Shown piece after piece: positions 22,361-34,756 of a stretch of DNA of 64,000 bases. The stretch's first letter is position 1; each line of letters starts with the position of its first letter. A model generated the notes under the pieces. That model was not told where the DNA came from. It made no database searches and saw nothing but the letters and a program-made list of their open reading frames with translations. Origin of the DNA: a virus; IMG/VR virus record IMGVR_UViG_3300027902_000001, positions 1 to 64,000 of that record; one strand, written 5' to 3'. The translations under genes and the position numbers were made by a program.

Positions 22361-22432
22361 CAGCAGATGCGGGACTCGAACCCGCGTCGTAGCCTTGAAA
22401 GGGCCACATCCTAACCGCTAGAAGAATCTGCC
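22361..22432 (-). tRNA. tRNA-Glu (anticodon TTC), CCA not encoded
   Basis: GGCAGAT/ATCTGCT acceptor stem, D loop TAGCGGTTAGGA, TGGCC-CTTTCAA-GGCTA anticodon arm, GCGGG-TTCGAGT-CCCGC T arm. Confidence 0.92.
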
Positions 22433-30358: not shown

Positions 30359-30703
30359 CTACAGCAGGTGCGCGCCCAACCGCGCCGCCACGTCGCCCCA
30401 ACAGCCGACGCGGTATGTTTCGGTCAGGTAGTCGTACAGCAGGGTCGTGTCATACGTGTTGCCCTGGTTGACGTAGCTCAGCCTGGGATGGCCTCCCAGG
30501 CGCTTATCCCACACGTACTCGACGCCGTGGCCGTCAATGTCATCGTTGCAGGCTTGCAGGATGCGGTCGCTGCGCGACCAGCCATCAGTCAGGCTGGTAA
30601 CTGGAATCGGCCCGCCGTGGATGTAGTCGCGCAGGCGGGCGGAGGCTTCCCAGGTCATGCCCCGGATGAGCATGAGCCGCTTGGATGATGGTGCTCTAGG
30701 CAT
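30359..30703 (-). CDS. Hypothetical phage protein
   Basis: GHGVE..YVNQGNTYDTT..WGD motif. Confidence 0.6.
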   Translation of the reverse strand: MPRAPSSKRLMLIRGMTWEASARLRDYIHGGPIPVTSLTDGWSRSDRILQACNDDIDGHGVEYVWDKRLGGHPRLSYVNQGNTYDTTLLYDYLTETYRVGCWGDVAARLGAHLL

Positions 30704-30890
30704 GGTTGACGCTCCCGGCCGCGGCGCGACGATCCAGTTCGTCGTCGATGTGGACGGTCTCGGCTTCGTCCTTCAGGATCGCAATTATCTCGGCGGCAGG
30801 CAAGCCTGATGCGTCGATGGCGGCGTGCAAGGCGCGCCGGAAGTTGATCCGTTGCGCGCGCTCCAATGGTGCGGCTTCGATATGATCCAT
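30696..30890 (-). CDS. Hypothetical protein
   Basis: AAGGAGG RBS directly after the hammerhead. Confidence 0.55.
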   Translation of the reverse strand: MDHIEAAPLERAQRINFRRALHAAIDASGLPAAEIIAILKDEAETVHIDDELDRRAAAGSVNHA

Positions 30891-30901
30891 GTGTTTCCTC
30901 C

Positions 30902-30973
30902 TTGACCTGGCTCGTTCAGCGCCGGGCAGTCATCCCCGGTCAGAGCCGCGGCCTCCCGACCGCAGCTTTCGCC
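30902..30973 (-). ncRNA. Type II hammerhead ribozyme (copy B)
   Basis: GGC-GAAA-GCTGCGGTC(GGGA)GGCCGCGGC-TC^TG-A-CCGGG(GATGACTG)CCCGG-CG-CTGAACGA-GCC-AGGTCAA. Confidence 0.8.
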
Positions 30974-30976
30974 TGT

Positions 30977-31195
30977 TCAATCCCCATCATCCTCTTGCTT
31001 GTCACGACCATAGCGATTGCGCAGTACGTAACCGTGGCGGCGTGCATAGGTACGCCAGAAGGCCCGGCTTTGCGCGCCCAGGTCGCCGTGGTAAAACCAT
31101 GACGCGCCCCCATCGGTGGATTGGCTGGCGCAGAAACCATCGCCAAATGGGTCGCCGTTGGGGTAGATTTCAAGGATGTCGGCAGGATTACGCAT
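30977..31195 (-). CDS. Hypothetical protein
   Basis: AAGGAGG RBS. Confidence 0.5.
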   Translation of the reverse strand: MRNPADILEIYPNGDPFGDGFCASQSTDGGASWFYHGDLGAQSRAFWRTYARRHGYVLRNRYGRDKQEDDGD

Positions 31196-31436
31196 GGTTG
31201 GCCTCCTTGGATTTATGCGTGGTCAGGTCGGCGCGACAGTAGCGGCACTCGTGGTAGATAGCGCAGCCGTCCTCCCAACTGACGCCGACCAGTATGGTGC
31301 CGGTCAACTTCTGAAACGGCATACCAGGTGGCACGCGGTCAGCCGGCACGGCCATCATGCCGTAGATCAAGCCCCGGCTCCGATCCTCGTGGTAGGACTC
31401 CCGGCAACCGTCATCGCAGAACTTACGCTGACTCAT
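31188..31436 (-). CDS. Small Cys-rich protein
   Basis: CDDGC and CRYC motifs; GGAGG RBS. Confidence 0.5.
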   Translation of the reverse strand: MSQRKFCDDGCRESYHEDRSRGLIYGMMAVPADRVPPGMPFQKLTGTILVGVSWEDGCAIYHECRYCRADLTTHKSKEANHA

Positions 31437-31438
31437 GG

Positions 31439-31636
31439 TTAGCCTCCGTAGTGCCAGACTTGGGTGCCGACCGGCAGGCGCTTGCACTTGGGTCCGCCAT
31501 GCCAGTCACGCAGGTATGACCGGAACTCCTGCTCGCCGATGGGTTCACGGAACTCGAATGCGCCCAGCGCGTAGGCGTCCAGCGAAAACTTGGCCGACCA
31601 ACGTGCGCTTTTACGGGACATGCTACGCTGGCTCAT
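31439..31636 (-). CDS. Hypothetical protein
   Basis: GGAGG RBS, coupled. Confidence 0.45.
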   Translation of the reverse strand: MSQRSMSRKSARWSAKFSLDAYALGAFEFREPIGEQEFRSYLRDWHGGPKCKRLPVGTQVWHYGG

Positions 31637-33092
31637 GGTTGGCCTCCCGCCACGCGCAGTACATCTTACGCGCCTTGATGTAGATGCTCGGATCGTCGGC
31701 GCAGTATTCCATGACGCCGACCGACAACTCACTGATCTGGTTGGCGTGTTTGCGCGTGCAGTCGCTCGCGCCCTCACTGGCGACGTGGGCCGCCTCATGG
31801 ATGACGACGGTGACGAAGCGTTCCCACGACCACTGGGAGATGTGGTCAGTATTCAGGATGATGCGGGTGGCGTCACCTGCGCCGTCGCACTCGTCCTTGA
31901 GCGCCCGACCCTCGATGGGCGTTTCGACCATGCCGCAACACGCCAGTAGGGTCTGCGCGGCGTGCAGCACCGGCTCCGGGATGGGTTTTTGGAGCGCCTG
32001 TTGCGCCTTGACCGTCACGATTTCGGAGACGTTAGGGATGGCGTCCGTCACCCACGCCGGCGGCGCGTAGTAGCCGGTCAGCACCTTACTGTTGGTCATC
32101 GCCGACGCGTCGGCAATCTGGGCCGCGTCGTCCGCACGCGTGGTGGCCCAGGACAGCTTCTTGAGACCCGCGGTCATCTTGAACTGCTTGACGCCGGCCG
32201 CGACAATGCGGGCCGGGGGCGCTTGCATGAACCGGAACTCCTCCGGTTGCGCGCCGTAGTTGGCGGCGTATTTGAGGACGGCGGCGATAGCGTCGGCGTC
32301 CGCGTAGCGGGCGAAGATTTCGCCGCATTCGGTGCGGACGTGCTCCCAGGAGAAGGCGGCCCGGTCGCGGCCGGGCGATTGGGACACGTTGTAGCTGAGC
32401 GCCAGGTTCCACTGCTCGCCGACCCGTTGGCCGCGACTGTACAACTGGCCGGCTTCGGTGATGATCAGCGGCGAGGACGCCTTGGGTGGCCGGTCGGCCA
32501 GGTTGACGCCGACTGCCGCCAGCTTGCACTGCAAGTGCGGATAGACGGCGTAGTTGAGGCCCGGATGGCGGGCGAAGGCTTCATAGGCGTTGGCCGCGTC
32601 CCGCGCTACGCCCGGCCCGGCATACGACCAGTAGGTGCCGCGGCGGGGCGTGGCAGTCTGGTACACGTCCAGCGTGAGCACCTGCTTGCCTCCGCCGTTA
32701 TAGTTGGCCAGCCGACCGGTCATGAGCCAGTCCTGGGACGCCAGCAGCTTGACGAAACCGCTGCGCGCGGCGACCAAACTGGAGATCATTTCGCCTTCGC
32801 CGTGCTCGCCGACCGTGGCGTCGTCGCCACGCTTGCCGGACTGGCCCAGCAAAAGGATGGTGTCCAGATCGACGCCGCGGCCGCTGTCGGCCAGGGTGAT
32901 GTGGTCGGCGTCGATCACGGTCAGGGCGGGCGCGCACTTGGCCGTCAGGCACTCGTCAAGTTGGTTCTGGACGGATTCCTTGACGGCCTTGGCCGCGTCC
33001 CAATCCGGCACGTAGTCGGCGCTGAGAATGGTCTGGATGGTTTGCGCGTAGGCGTAGGTACGCCCATCCAGGACGATGTTAGTCGGTGACAT
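31623..33092 (-). CDS. GHKL (Hsp90/MORC-like) ATPase fused to a C-terminal HExxH metallopeptidase-like domain
   Basis: KESVQNQLD (N box), DSGRG (G1), GEHGEG (G2), VIHEAAH. Confidence 0.7.
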   Translation of the reverse strand: MSPTNIVLDGRTYAYAQTIQTILSADYVPDWDAAKAVKESVQNQLDECLTAKCAPALTVIDADHITLADSGRGVDLDTILLLGQSGKRGDDATVGEHGEGEMISSLVAARSGFVKLLASQDWLMTGRLANYNGGGKQVLTLDVYQTATPRRGTYWSYAGPGVARDAANAYEAFARHPGLNYAVYPHLQCKLAAVGVNLADRPPKASSPLIITEAGQLYSRGQRVGEQWNLALSYNVSQSPGRDRAAFSWEHVRTECGEIFARYADADAIAAVLKYAANYGAQPEEFRFMQAPPARIVAAGVKQFKMTAGLKKLSWATTRADDAAQIADASAMTNSKVLTGYYAPPAWVTDAIPNVSEIVTVKAQQALQKPIPEPVLHAAQTLLACCGMVETPIEGRALKDECDGAGDATRIILNTDHISQWSWERFVTVVIHEAAHVASEGASDCTRKHANQISELSVGVMEYCADDPSIYIKARKMYCAWREANHEPA

Positions 33093-33399
33093 CGGACTCC
33101 TCCCCTGCTTTGATCTGTGCGGCGCGCACCGCGGCCATACGTGCGGTCATGCGCTTGACGCTGCGCAAGTTGTAACCGAGCGACTCCAGTTCCTCTTTCA
33201 GGTCGGCGTATTCGTTTGGCGCGGCCGGCCTGGTCCAGCCGGTGATGCCAACTGATGCCGCGCCATGCTGACCGACGTGCATGCAGGACAACATCCTGTA
33301 GTAACCATCTGCGATCTCCGGGAACAACGCAATGACATCTCCGTCGCCGTCCTTGAACTTGCGGAAGATGACGGTGGTCTGTGCAGTGTCTTGCTCCAT
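33079..33399 (-). CDS. Conserved phage protein
   Basis: VIFRKF..VIALFP..HVGQH..EY..L.EELESLGY motif. Confidence 0.7.
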   Translation of the reverse strand: MEQDTAQTTVIFRKFKDGDGDVIALFPEIADGYYRMLSCMHVGQHGAASVGITGWTRPAAPNEYADLKEELESLGYNLRSVKRMTARMAAVRAAQIKAGEESDVTD

Positions 33400-33424
33400 A
33401 ATAATCCTCCTGAGAGCGTATGTT

Positions 33425-33585
33425 GGATAGCACCTGACGCGCCATCTTGCTGCGCGTCCATGAGGGCCGGCGGGGGAACGATCCCCGCGTACAGTCTTGG
33501 CAGACCGCTGCACCAGCATCAGCCCATGCGCGCATGGTTGGTTCGGCCTGGTAAGCCGCCGACCATGCGCAGACACCCATTGACC
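33425..33585 (-). ncRNA. Candidate structured intergenic RNA
   Basis: Four to five GC-rich helices including a multiloop. Confidence 0.4.
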
Positions 33586-33640
33586 GTGATCCTCCTTGGT
33601 TAGTATGCTGCCGCGGCGCATTACCCCGCCAGTGACCCGC

Positions 33641-33949
33641 CTAGTTCGGTCGCGCCAGGTCCAGCGCGACGTGTTCGGCCTGGGCTGGCGTGATGCTGTC
33701 CAGGCCGGCGACGATGCGGTCGGTATGCTCGTCCTCGTGCCGGGTCGCGTGACGCTTGCGCGTGACGACCACTCTGCCGCAACACGTATGGGCCGTCCAG
33801 ACACACGGCATGGCGTAGATGCGGGCGTGTTCTTCGGCCAGTTGGATGGCATACGCCAACATGTCCGTCACGCCGTCGAAGGCGTCCGGGTCAATGTCAG
33901 CGCAGGTGCCGACCGTGAAAGTGTACTTGTCGGTGACGAGCTTAGTCAT
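33641..33949 (-). CDS. Hypothetical protein
   Basis: GGAGG RBS, coupled. Confidence 0.5.
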   Translation of the reverse strand: MTKLVTDKYTFTVGTCADIDPDAFDGVTDMLAYAIQLAEEHARIYAMPCVWTAHTCCGRVVVTRKRHATRHEDEHTDRIVAGLDSITPAQAEHVALDLARPN

Positions 33950-34211
33950 GGGATACCTCCATTGCGTCATCCAGCGCCGCCTGTTGCGTCGCGACATGCG
34001 CGTTGATTGCATCCTGCACGTGACCGGATTTGAGTGCCGCGAACGCGCGCAGACACTTCAGGTGGTCGTGGCACTCGGCGACTATCCTGGCAATGGCTAT
34101 CCCAAAGGTTAGCGGGTTGCGCGGAGTTCGGGCTGTGCGCTGACTTTCGATGCGTAGCGCACGGAGAATTTCGATCTTCTGGTTGTACTGCTCATTGGTC
34201 ATACTTGGCAT
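33942..34211 (-). CDS. Hypothetical protein
   Basis: AGGAGG RBS directly after the hammerhead. Confidence 0.55.
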   Translation of the reverse strand: MPSMTNEQYNQKIEILRALRIESQRTARTPRNPLTFGIAIARIVAECHDHLKCLRAFAALKSGHVQDAINAHVATQQAALDDAMEVSHD

Positions 34212-34225
34212 GGGATACCTCCTGC

Positions 34226-34297
34226 TTGACCTGCCTCATTCAGCGCCGGACAGTCATCTCCGGGCAGACCGGACGCGCCTGGCGTCCGGTTTCGGCA
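34226..34297 (-). ncRNA. Type II hammerhead ribozyme (copy A)
   Basis: TGCC-GAAA-CCGGACGC(CAGGC)GCGTCCGG-TC^TG-C-CCGGA(GATGACTG)TCCGG-CG-CTGAATGA-GGCA-GGTCAA. Confidence 0.82.
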
Positions 34298-34299
34298 CG

Positions 34300-34416
34300 T
34301 TACTGCGCGCCGGCCAGCGCGTCGCGCAGCGCGCTGAGCCACGACCGCCACGGCCAGCGGACGCCGATGCCGTGACGGGAGACGAGAATACCTGAACGGG
34401 AAAAGGTGATGGTCAT
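34300..34416 (-). CDS. Small protein (38 aa)
   Basis: AGGAGG RBS; start MTITFSR. Confidence 0.45.
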   Translation of the reverse strand: MTITFSRSGILVSRHGIGVRWPWRSWLSALRDALAGAQ

Positions 34417-34426
34417 GGGATACCTC

Positions 34427-34756
34427 CTAGTATTCGCAGACCAGATAGACGTAGCGCCAGTTACGACCGGCCGCGGTTGGCGGTTGTATGTGGCATGGCC
34501 AGCGACCACGGCGCAGCAACTTCTTGACAGTCGCCGGCGGGATGGCGTGACGGAAGTCTTGCTCCGTCCACACCAGTTCCCACACCGGCTGCCCCAACCA
34601 GGCCAGTTGGGCGTAGTAGTTACCACCCGCATAGTCGCCATCTTGCCAGCAGTCCTGCGCCATGCTCTGCATAACGGACGGCGAAAGCAGGTGCTCGCAT
34701 TCGGTTACGATATGCTCGCTGGTCGTTCCCTGATGGATCGTGTAACGCTTGAGCAT
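34427..34756 (-). CDS. Hypothetical protein
   Basis: ORF in the early array. Confidence 0.5.
   Translation of the reverse strand: MLKRYTIHQGTTSEHIVTECEHLLSPSVMQSMAQDCWQDGDYAGGNYYAQLAWLGQPVWELVWTEQDFRHAIPPATVKKLLRRGRWPCHIQPPTAAGRNWRYVYLVCEY

What the first reader, a model, noticed from the sequence alone, without database searches (positions are those of the whole stretch)
30902..30973. Type II hammerhead ribozyme B wedged between stop codon and Shine-Dalgarno
Seen: GAAA, 10-bp stem III with GGGA tetraloop, CUC cleavage triplet (predicted cut between 30943 and 30942), stem I with a 1-nt bulge and loop GAUGACUG, core CUGA-AC-GA (one extra nt versus CUGANGA), and 3' GGUCA able to pseudoknot with loop UGAC. 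It starts 3 nt after the TGA at 30977 and ends at AAGGAGG. Compared with copy A, stems II and III differ in sequence yet still pair, and stem I swaps A-U for G-C.
Basis: partly seen in the sequence, partly recalled or inferred. Interest (0 to 1): 0.85.

Follow-up and report, generated by a model that had tools for sequence, protein, structure and literature searches.

The report
Phage type II hammerhead ribozyme, copy B
This short RNA between two phage genes is very probably a real self-cutting hammerhead ribozyme of an already known phage-associated kind, with one extra letter in its catalytic core.

Summary
These features are stem II GGC/GCC, GAAA, a 10-bp stem III with a GGGA loop, U-C before the cut, stem I with a bulged A and loop GAUGACUG, the core CUGAACGA, and the tail GGUCA pairing with loop UGAC.

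- **Rfam score:** Hammerhead_II gives only 20.1 bits against a cut-off of 37. Copy A at 34224-34298 gives 32 bits.
- **Independent model:** a covariance model trained only on 42 hammerheads from other phage and MAG contigs scores A at 65.3 bits and B at 56.9 bits (E 1e-12). Fifteen of the hammerheads in those contigs pass Rfam's cut-off.
- **Chance:** a structural descriptor finds only these two sites in the window, and none in 200 shuffles.
- **Covariation:** it supports all three stems and the pseudoknot.

The window belongs to a 73.5-kb phage genome. The two ribozymes flank a 3.3-kb block of a leftward operon, each sitting between a stop codon and a Shine-Dalgarno site. That placement is typical of this subfamily (39 of 44 are followed by an SD and a start codon).

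This kind of element was described in 2011 (Perreault et al.). The only unusual point is the 8-nt core in both copies. It is rare (4 of 42 elsewhere) and was reported to cleave slowly. Activity is untested here.

The parts
30977..31195 (-). Upstream ORF (72 aa) whose TGA stop (30979-30977) lies 3 nt before stem II of hammerhead B
   Evidence: ORF list and sequence. No family match in PHROGs, Pfam or PADLOC.
30900..30975 (-). Hammerhead B, type II. Stem II is 30973-30971 with 30911-30909. GAAA is 30970-30967. Stem III is 30967-30958 with 30953-30944, loop 30957-30954. C17 is 30943, with the cut predicted between 30943 and 30942. Stem I is 30942-30935 with 30926-30920, with A30940 bulged. Loop I is 30934-30927. 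The 8-nt core CUGAACGA is 30919-30912. The pseudoknot pairs 30932-30928 with 30907-30903.
   Evidence: Sequence and pair check. Rfam RF02276 20.1 bits. R3 56.9 bits, E 1e-12. Covariation. Descriptor versus shuffles.
30888..30903 (-). Shine-Dalgarno AAGGAGG (30903-30897, its first A being the last pseudoknot nucleotide), a 6-nt spacer, and the ATG (30890-30888) of the downstream 64-aa ORF 30696-30890
   Evidence: Sequence, ORF list and SD scan.
34224..34298 (-). Hammerhead A, the paralogue. Stem II is 34297-34294 with 34235-34232. GAAA is 34293-34290. Stem III is 34290-34282 with 34276-34268. C17 is 34267, with the cut predicted between 34267 and 34266. Stem I is 34266-34259 with 34250-34244, with C34264 bulged. 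Loop I is 34258-34251. The 8-nt core CUGAAUGA is 34243-34236. The pseudoknot pairs 34256-34252 with 34231-34227.
   Evidence: Rfam RF02276 32 bits. R3 65.3 bits, E 5.8e-15. Pair check.
34300..34416 (-). Upstream ORF ending in TAA (34302-34300), 2 nt before hammerhead A. Read from the ATG at 34416 with its AGGAGG it is 38 aa. The same frame is open back to 34641 (113 aa).
   Evidence: Sequence and ORF list. The choice of start codon is my inference.
34209..34223 (-). AGGAGG (34223-34218), spacer, and ATG (34211-34209) of the 89-aa ORF 33942-34211 directly after hammerhead A
   Evidence: Sequence and ORF list.
30943..34266 (-). The 3,324-nt RNA segment that two cleavages would release. It carries about seven ORFs, including the 489-aa GHKL-like/HExxH protein at 31623-33092.
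   Evidence: Cut sites inferred from the hammerhead model. ORFs. Protein family.

Best explanation
Copy B, like copy A, is a type II hammerhead self-cleaving ribozyme. It is transcribed as part of a long leftward (minus-strand) operon of a 73.5-kb phage.

Once about 75 nt have been made, the RNA folds into the three-way junction. The loop I/3'-tail pseudoknot (UGACU with GGUCA) holds stems I and II parallel. The RNA then cuts itself after C30943 (copy A after C34267).

The upstream fragment ends in the stable stem III hairpin with a 2',3'-cyclic phosphate, just after the stop codon. The downstream fragment begins with a 5'-OH and the stem I hairpin, followed at once by the Shine-Dalgarno site of the next gene.

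The pair therefore cuts the polycistronic RNA into separate mRNAs, one of them a 3.3-kb block. Each fragment's stability and translation no longer depends on its neighbours.

Shown here: the fold, the family relationship, the covariation and the placement. Inferred: cleavage itself, its rate, and the consequences for mRNA stability and translation. The one-nucleotide insertion in the CUGANGA box probably makes cleavage slower than in canonical members.
For: **The fold is present.** All conserved core letters are present and every pair is standard.

**Model scores.**
- Rfam Hammerhead_II is the best family for both copies, matched over the full model 1-66: 20.1 and 32 bits; E 0.005 and 3.8e-6 for the whole genome.
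- R3, built from 42 hits in other contigs only, scores A at 65.3 bits (E 5.8e-15) and B at 56.9 bits (E 1e-12). Nothing else in 112.7 kb reaches E<=1.
- In six of those contigs, 15 of 24 Hammerhead_II matches pass Rfam's 37-bit cut-off. One of these, L053:937-1005, carries the same 8-nt core CUGAAUGA (41.4 bits).

**Chance.** The descriptor finds 2 sites in the window and 0 in 200 shuffles.

**Covariation (28 sequences).** 93.3% of cells are paired. 23 of 25 pairs change on both sides. The pseudoknot, which is not part of the model, is 96.9% paired with 4 of 5 pairs changed on both sides. 0 of 500 shuffles reach the observed values, and slid controls give 26-43% paired.

**A versus B (my count on the sequences; pair table).** Six pairs change on both sides, one on one side, and none is broken. 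From the cut site to the end of the tail the two copies differ at five positions only. These are the bulge, N7, both sides of one stem I pair, and the stem II position that is compensated in the 5' half.

**Context.**
- Genes on the minus strand are tightly packed, and no terminator-like site lies on that strand between about 37 kb and 29 kb.
- Of 44 hammerheads of this subfamily, 39 are followed by an SD and a start codon within about 25 nt. Most abut or overlap a stop codon.

**Literature.** Perreault et al. 2011 (PMC3088659, sections 6 and 8 read) found that type II hammerheads with this pseudoknot flank genes or short gene blocks in prophages. They cleave in vitro, and for A. tumefaciens also in E. 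coli. [quoted passage not shown]
Against: - Both copies score below Rfam's gathering score of 37.
- Both carry an extra nucleotide in the CUGANGA box. For the natural 'A6a' insertion, Perreault et al. 2011 (section 8) report low activity and expect a disturbed U4 contact.
- No RNA data exist for this phage, so cleavage, transcript extent and any effect on expression are unobserved.
- Hammerheads are not a fixed feature next to the one conserved gene of the block. Only 2 of 15 loci with a homologue of the 489-aa protein show a clear one (L007, L013) and a third is weak (L012). The small ORFs beside them are not homologous to those here.
- Nested-helix counts were made on alignments fitted to the model, which biases them toward the structure.
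- The host is unknown.
Confidence: 0.72

Rival explanations
1. A catalytically crippled hammerhead relic. The fold is kept but the 8-nt core barely cleaves. The element would then act mainly as a structured intercistronic spacer, with the stem III and stem I hairpins acting as barriers to RNases or as a way to separate termination from initiation.
For: The insertion after A6 is reported as low-activity (PMC3088659, section 8). The 8-nt core is rare: 4 of 42 non-window hits, and 1 of 31 hits not chosen by my own pattern. Stems I and III are strong G+C-rich hairpins predicted in any context.
Against: All invariant core letters, the A15.1-U16.1 pair, the 3-4-bp stem II and the pseudoknot are retained in both copies, and every difference between them is neutral or compensated. 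Hairpins alone would not need this. The same 8-nt core recurs in otherwise intact hammerheads of unrelated contigs (L053:936-1006 and L046:4292-4359). 'Low' activity in the paper still meant measurable cleavage.
Confidence: 0.2
2. The two cuts release the 3.3-kb segment with 5'-OH and 2',3'-cyclic phosphate ends. A host RtcB-type ligase or hammerhead-catalysed ligation then joins them into a circular or spliced RNA.
For: The end chemistry of hammerhead products suits such ligation (established knowledge). Perreault et al. 2011 (section 6) raise this possibility for clustered phage hammerheads.
Against: The same authors looked and detected no such products (section 6, 'data not shown'). Joining the ends would pair B's stem II 5' strand (GGC) with A's 3' strand (GGC[A]). 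This leaves a G-G mismatch in a 3-bp helix (my reading), so a chimeric hammerhead is disfavoured. There are no RNA data.
Confidence: 0.04
3. A chance resemblance, or another kind of repeated intergenic element such as a terminator or REP-like palindrome.
For: The Rfam score is below threshold. The sequence is G+C-rich and forms hairpins easily.
Against: 0 of 200 shuffles give any site. R3 gives E 1e-12. There is no T-run after either hairpin and no terminator-like call at these sites. The conserved hammerhead core is present and the pseudoknot covaries.
Confidence: 0.02

Closest known systems
Type II hammerhead ribozymes with a loop I/3'-tail pseudoknot in prophages (Perreault et al. 2011, PMC3088659; Rfam RF02276), for example the clustered arrangements in Agrobacterium tumefaciens and Azorhizobium caulinodans
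   Same: Same topology: stems I and III closed, stem II open. Same Watson-Crick pseudoknot between loop I and the tail after stem II. Same short stem II. Same placement between genes of a phage operon, with two copies flanking a short gene block.
   Different: The core has 8 rather than 7 nt in the CUGANGA box. The pseudoknot letters are UGAC/GUCA rather than the Rfam consensus UGGC/GCCA, a compensated change. The flanked genes are unrelated to ardA and have no known function. Both copies score under Rfam's cut-off.
Natural 'A6a' core-insertion variant of the hammerhead (Perreault et al. 2011, section 8 and the Figure 5 legend; Figure S6 not seen because supplements are closed)
   Same: As a string, an A inserted after A6 gives CUGA-A-NGA, which is what both copies show (CUGAAUGA, CUGAACGA).
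   Different: I could not see which organism or hammerhead type carried A6a, nor its rate. Here the insertion is present in both ribozymes of one phage. It also occurs in intact hammerheads of two unrelated contigs (L053:936-1006 and L046:4292-4359), which suggests it is tolerated rather than a defect.
Unannotated type II hammerhead of Rhizobium phage vB_RleA_TRX32-1 (MW023914.1 39597-39668)
   Same: An intergenic element between two hypothetical genes of a phage. Rfam gives 32 bits, also under the cut-off. It has the same architecture and an SD-like AAGGGA plus ATG just after the tail.
   Different: Canonical 7-nt core CUGAUGA, and the pseudoknot is UGGCA/UGCCA.
Hammerhead arrays in other IMG/VR phage records found here (G001 with 11, G002 with 7, G003 with 12, G004 with 4)
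   Same: Same subfamily by model R3, and the same stop-ribozyme-SD placement.
   Different: Those phages carry many copies, mostly with 7-nt cores. This phage has only two, both with 8 nt. No TerL similarity to this phage was found.
Synthetic ribozyme insulators such as RiboJ (recalled from my own knowledge; no paper read here)
   Same: A hammerhead placed just upstream of a ribosome-binding site cuts away upstream RNA, so translation of the next gene no longer depends on its 5' context. This is what the natural placement suggests.
   Different: RiboJ is an engineered element derived from a satellite-RNA hammerhead of another topology. No functional test has been done on the phage elements.

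Membership tests
Hammerhead ribozyme, type II (Rfam RF02276) | Three-way junction with stems I and III closed by loops and stem II open (5' and 3' ends in stem II) | tested here: met
   All pairs are standard in both copies. The Rfam alignment covers the full model 1-66. Covariation supports stems I, II and III.
Hammerhead ribozyme, type II (Rfam RF02276) | Invariant core letters: C3 U4 G5 A6 ... G8 A9, G12 A13 A14, the A15.1-U16.1 pair, and H17 (not G) at the cut | tested here: met
   Copy B has CUGA..GA at 30919-30912, GAA+A at 30970-30967, U30944 and C30943. Copy A has the same.
Hammerhead ribozyme, type II (Rfam RF02276) | Usual 7-nt spacing of the CUGANGA box. This is typical rather than obligatory: an 8-nt member passes Rfam's cut-off, and the A6a variant was accepted as a natural, weakly active hammerhead. 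| tested here: not met
   Copy B has CUGAACGA and copy A has CUGAAUGA, both 8 nt. L053:937-1005 has CUGAAUGA and scores 41.4 bits, above the 37-bit cut-off. See also PMC3088659, section 8.
Hammerhead ribozyme, type II (Rfam RF02276) | Tertiary contact: a pseudoknot of 4 or more pairs between loop I and the tail after stem II | tested here: met
   UGACU pairs with GGUCA, 5 pairs including one G-U. Across 28 sequences it is 96.9% paired, with 4 of 5 pairs changed on both sides. The feature is described in PMC3088659, section 6.
Hammerhead ribozyme, type II (Rfam RF02276) | Score at or above Rfam's gathering threshold (37 bits) | tested here: not met
   Copy B scores 20.1 bits and copy A 32 bits. 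This threshold is operational. In six other contigs, 9 of 24 Hammerhead_II matches also fall below it, as does the canonical TRX32-1 element at 32 bits.
Hammerhead ribozyme, type II (Rfam RF02276) | Site-specific self-cleavage giving 2',3'-cyclic phosphate and 5'-OH ends | not testable with these tools
   No RNA run holds this phage. A bench assay is needed.

The most novel reading that the evidence does not exclude
The 8-nt (A6a-type) core may not be a defect. It could mark a selected, slow or conditional subclass of phage type II hammerheads. Because the stop codon of the upstream gene abuts stem II and the Shine-Dalgarno site overlaps the last pseudoknot nucleotide, ribosomes terminating or initiating there would melt the ribozyme. 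A slow core would then make cleavage depend on translation traffic or on Mg2+. In this phage that would time or dose expression of the 3.3-kb block carrying the GHKL-like/HExxH protein, whereas canonical fast copies in other phages simply cut every transcript.
Probability: 0.12. Interest if true: 0.55.

Novelty: new member of a known kind. Interest (0 to 1): 0.3.

Why it matters
Taken alone, this adds two more members to a class known since 2011, in an uncultured lake-water phage. It has two modest points of value.

First, both ribozymes of one complete phage genome carry the rare core insertion that was reported as poorly active, yet every other difference between them is neutral or compensated. 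That makes this phage a clean natural test of whether the insertion is tolerated or useful.

Second, the survey done here shows that this subfamily is almost always wedged between a stop codon and a Shine-Dalgarno site (39 of 44 are followed by SD plus start). This sharpens the open question of what bacterial and phage hammerheads do. It points to intercistronic mRNA processing coupled to translation signals, which simple reporter assays could test.

Tried and rejected
**Alignment.** MAFFT alignments of the copies put the gaps in the wrong place and misaligned GAAA. I used model-based alignments instead.

**Close relatives of the region.**
- blastn of 30600-34700 against phages: none.
- Exact pattern from the shared 3' half in viral contigs: none.
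- The 489-aa protein or its family in viral contigs and genome contigs: none.
- blastn of copy A against phages: only chance matches, apart from the TRX32-1 hammerhead.

**Pattern scans.**
- Pattern: 10 viral loci, none a hammerhead. Seven of the ten showed the identical stretch.
- Pattern: 15 genome loci. Four (L034, L037, L038, L046) gave a model hit at E<=1 and 11 were chance.
- Simple CGAAA...CTGANGA pattern: 2 irrelevant hits, as expected by chance.

**Loci with homologues of the 489-aa protein.** 15 loci were fetched. Hammerhead-like hits occurred in L013, L007 (cut by the contig end) and L012 (weak: E 0.63 with R1, no hit at E<=1 with R3). There was none in the other 12. The small ORFs next to the L007 and L013 hammerheads show no similarity to those in the window, so I dropped the idea of conserved synteny.

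**Expression.** No RNA holder was listed. Laying the contigs of three coded DNA runs gave only short, low-depth pieces of the phage or its relatives and nothing about cleavage.

**Other checks that led nowhere.**
- Folding the 3' products and precursors did not settle whether the SD is exposed.
- PHROGs, Pfam and PADLOC gave no function for the flanked genes, except phrog_6077 (unknown function) for the 489-aa protein.
- Phage PaP3, named in the 2011 paper as carrying a core variant, has no RF02276 match. I did not try the other hammerhead families.
- TerL of this phage has no match in five hammerhead-rich viral records.
- A third R2 hit in the window (33630-33681, E 0.063) lacks stem III and the core, and was rejected.

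**Not available.** Supplements of PMC3088659 (Figure S6, Dataset S1) are closed. They may show which hammerhead carries A6a and how fast it cleaves.

Full report
**What is there.** On the minus strand, 3 nt after the TGA (30979-30977) of a 72-aa ORF, the sequence reads:

ACAGGC GAAA GCUGCGGUC GGGA GGCCGCGGC UC / UGACCGGG GAUGACUG CCCGGCG CUGAACGA GCC AGGUCA AGGAGG AAACAC AUG.

This is the order of a type II hammerhead:
- stem II 5' strand;
- GAAA;
- the stem III hairpin, closed by A15.1-U16.1;
- C17 and the cut;
- the stem I hairpin;
- the CUGANGA box;
- stem II 3' strand;
- a tail that can pair with loop I.

All proposed pairs are standard pairs. The box has eight letters (CUGAACGA), one more than the consensus. 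The AAGGAGG of the next gene (ATG at 30890) starts at the last pseudoknot nucleotide.

**A second copy.** An E-value scan of the whole window with Rfam found one more Hammerhead_II match, at 34225-34297 on the minus strand (32 bits). It has the same layout. A TAA stop lies at 34302-34300, the ribozyme follows, and then come AGGAGG and the ATG at 34211. Its core is CUGAAUGA, again eight letters.

The two copies compare as follows (the count is mine):
- Stem III is entirely different in sequence but fully paired in both. From the junction outward, four pairs change on both sides and one on one side.
- Stem II swaps a C-G for a G-C.
- The pair of stem I next to loop I swaps A-U for G-C.
- From the cut site to the end of the tail the copies differ at five positions only. 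These are the bulged nucleotide, N7, the two sides of that stem I pair, and the stem II position matched by the change in the 5' half.
- No difference breaks a pair or touches an invariant core letter.

**Is it more than chance?**
- At Rfam's gathering threshold the window shows only a tRNA. Copy B scores 20.1 bits and copy A 32 bits, against a cut-off of 37.
- For the whole 73,495-bp record searched with this one family, the E-values are 0.005 and 3.8e-6.
- My structural descriptor requires GAAA, at least 3 pairs in stem II, at least 6 in stem III closed by A-U, U then not-G, at least 6 pairs in stem I with at most one bulge, and CUGA-N(1-2)-GA. It finds exactly these two sites on both strands of the window and none in 200 dinucleotide-preserving shuffles. 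The descriptor was written after I had seen the sites, so it overstates the case somewhat.

**Relatives and an independent model.** No close relative of the region exists in the collections I could search.

A degenerate pattern covering loop I, the core and the tail, scanned over genome contigs and viral contigs, was followed by a search with a model made from copy A (R1). This brought in many type II hammerheads:
- from IMG/VR contigs L047-L054;
- from MAG contigs L034, L038 and L046;
- and, found by blastn, one from Rhizobium phage vB_RleA_TRX32-1.

From 42 such hits, none from the window, I built model R3. R3 scores copy A at 65.3 bits (E 5.8e-15) and copy B at 56.9 bits (E 1e-12). It finds nothing else at E<=1 in 112.7 kb comprising the window and 13 other loci.

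That these other sequences are hammerheads in Rfam's own sense is shown. In six of the contigs, 15 of 24 Hammerhead_II matches exceed the 37-bit cut-off and nine do not. The canonical TRX32-1 element also reaches only 32 bits. Falling below the cut-off is therefore common for real members of this subfamily.

**Covariation.** On 28 aligned sequences (A7), 93.3% of cells form standard pairs. 23 of 25 pairs show changes on both sides, and no shuffle out of 500 reaches any of the five observed measures. Sliding the partners by 1-3 columns drops pairing to 26-43%.

The nested helices were aligned to the model, which favours them. The pseudoknot is not part of the model, yet it is 96.9% paired with 4 of 5 pairs changed on both sides (for example UGACC/GGUCA, UGGCC/GGCCA, UGAUC/GAUCG).

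**The extra core nucleotide.** Among the 42 non-window hits the core box is distributed as follows:
- seven letters in 37 (20 CUGAUGA followed by G, 12 CUGAAGA, 3 CUGACGA, 1 UUGAAGA, and 1 CUGAUGA followed by U);
- eight letters in 4;
- unrecognisable in 1.

Of the four eight-letter cases, two are intact hammerheads: L053:936-1006 (CUGAAUGA) and L046:4292-4359 (CUGAACGA). The other two (L038:2546-2633 and L037:2179-2242) lack a proper GAAA or 5' half on inspection.

My pattern allowed CTGAA-N-GAG, so it favoured such cases. Among the 31 hits not chosen by the pattern, one (L053:936-1006) has eight letters. That one passes Rfam's cut-off at 41.4 bits.

As a string, CUGA-A-YGA equals the 'A6a' insertion of Perreault et al. 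2011 (PMC3088659, section 8, read in full). The authors describe it as a natural variant of low activity and explain this by a disturbed contact between the A6-N7 phosphate and U4. I could not see their Figure S6 or Dataset S1 because supplements are closed.

The variant is therefore known and rare, and it recurs in otherwise intact ribozymes. This phage is unusual only in that both of its ribozymes have it.

**Context.** The window is the first 64 kb of a 73,495-bp IMG/VR record with direct terminal repeats, that is, a complete phage genome.
- TerL (41476-43386) is at most about 39% identical to that of cultured phages, with Acidovorax phage AP1 the best match. The host is unknown.
- From about 37 kb down to about 23 kb, the minus strand carries tightly packed small genes with AGGAGG-type ribosome sites.
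- No terminator-like site lies on that strand between 37 kb and 29 kb.
- The two ribozymes fill two of the few longer gaps, 86 and 88 nt. The whole genome holds just these two.
- Cuts at 34267/34266 and 30943/30942 would release 3,324 nt with about seven ORFs.
- The only ORF of the block with relatives is a 489-aa protein (31623-33092). Its family (14 sequences, nearly all from metagenomes) keeps GHKL-ATPase-like motifs and a C-terminal HExxH. No library names it.

**Is the position conserved?** Of 15 metagenome loci with a homologue of the 489-aa protein:
- L013 has a type II hammerhead about 900 nt downstream of the gene;
- L007 begins inside one about 800 nt upstream of the gene;
- L012 has a weak candidate;
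- the other 12 show none within the DNA held.

The small ORFs next to these ribozymes are not similar to those in the window. I therefore do not claim conserved synteny. Hammerheads are simply frequent in such phage operons.

**The placement is general.** Taking the 42 other hits plus the two window copies, 39 of 44 are followed within about 25 nt by an SD-like motif and a start codon. In most of them a stop codon abuts or overlaps the first nucleotides of the ribozyme. The model consensus itself begins UAG.

Other viral records carry many copies: 11 in G001, a complete 72-kb genome; 7 in G002; 12 in the G003 fragment; and 4 in G004. These phages show no TerL similarity to this one.

**How it most likely works.**
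- Shown: the fold, the family relationship, the covariation, and the stop-ribozyme-SD placement.
- From the literature: type II hammerheads with this pseudoknot cleave efficiently in vitro. The A. tumefaciens set also cleaves in E. coli. The pseudoknot is needed for speed. The proposed role is processing of long phage transcripts into operon- or gene-length mRNAs (PMC3088659, sections 6 and 8 read in full, passages of section 7). Two reviews state that the biological role in bacteria and phages is still open (passages of PMC6765202 section 13 and PMC6155905 section 8).
- Inferred for this locus:
  - The RNA cuts itself after C30943 and C34267.
  - The upstream product ends in the stem III hairpin with a cyclic phosphate.
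  - The downstream product starts with a 5'-OH and the stem I hairpin just before its SD.
  - Each piece's stability and translation thereby becomes independent of its neighbours.
  - The 8-nt core probably lowers the rate.

I put 0.95 on 'a hammerhead-fold RNA of this family' and about 0.7 on 'cleaves at a biologically useful rate and serves intercistronic processing'.

**Rivals.**
- A crippled relic acting only as a structured spacer (0.2).
- Excision followed by ligation into a circular RNA (0.04). The stem II swap between A and B would leave a G-G mismatch in a chimeric ribozyme, and the 2011 authors looked for such products without finding them.
- Chance or another kind of repeat (0.02).

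**Verdict.** This is a new member of a known kind, with a known but rare core variant present in both copies. Interest is modest.

Noticed in passing
window 31623-33092 (-): A 489-aa protein inside the ribozyme-flanked block. Its family of 14 sequences, nearly all metagenomic, keeps E..N..D, DxGRG and GQHGEGE motifs. These are GHKL-ATPase-like, with weak GyrB N-terminal matches at E about 1e-3. It also keeps a C-terminal HExxH. There is no Pfam or PADLOC match, only phrog_6077 of unknown function.
   Followed up: partly
IMG/VR records behind L053 (G001), L047 (G002), L049 (G003), L052 (G004): Arrays of type II hammerheads: 11 in about 10 kb of a complete 72-kb DTR genome, 12 in about 5.5 kb of a fragment, and 7 and 4 in the others. 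Nearly every one sits between a stop codon and an SD.
   Followed up: partly
MW023914.1 39597-39668 (L029 1500-1573): Rhizobium phage vB_RleA_TRX32-1 has a canonical type II hammerhead in an intergenic gap that carries no annotation in the record. Rfam gives 32 bits, below the cut-off.
   Followed up: yes
L013 11187-11313 and 11833-11904 (+): Two short matches to the tmRNA family (58.8 and 45.6 bits) that cover only the tRNA-like ends of the model, in a 92.9-kb metagenome contig.
   Followed up: no
window 34414-34428 and 34209-34223 (-): The same 15-nt block, AGGAGGTATCCCATG, precedes both the 38-aa ORF upstream of hammerhead A and the 89-aa ORF downstream of it.
   Followed up: no
window 30642-30904: One contig of a coded lake-water metagenome run joins 30642 to 30904. 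In a relative, therefore, the 64-aa gene after hammerhead B is absent or replaced, with the breakpoint at the 3' end of the ribozyme. It is a single contig aligned at a low likeness setting, so the evidence is weak.
   Followed up: no
L007 1-54 and L052 1-57 (also the weak L012 1-50): Several contigs begin inside a hammerhead, at about the start of its 3' half. This would be expected if repeated ribozyme halves break metagenome assemblies. That is my inference only.
   Followed up: no
window 22361-22432 (-) and 39453-40910 (+): A tRNA gene (53.9 bits) lies next to a 423-aa ORF at the left end of the leftward operon. A DNA methyltransferase-like gene (phrog_67, E 1e-37) lies at the start of the rightward genes, upstream of the terminase gene.
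   Followed up: no
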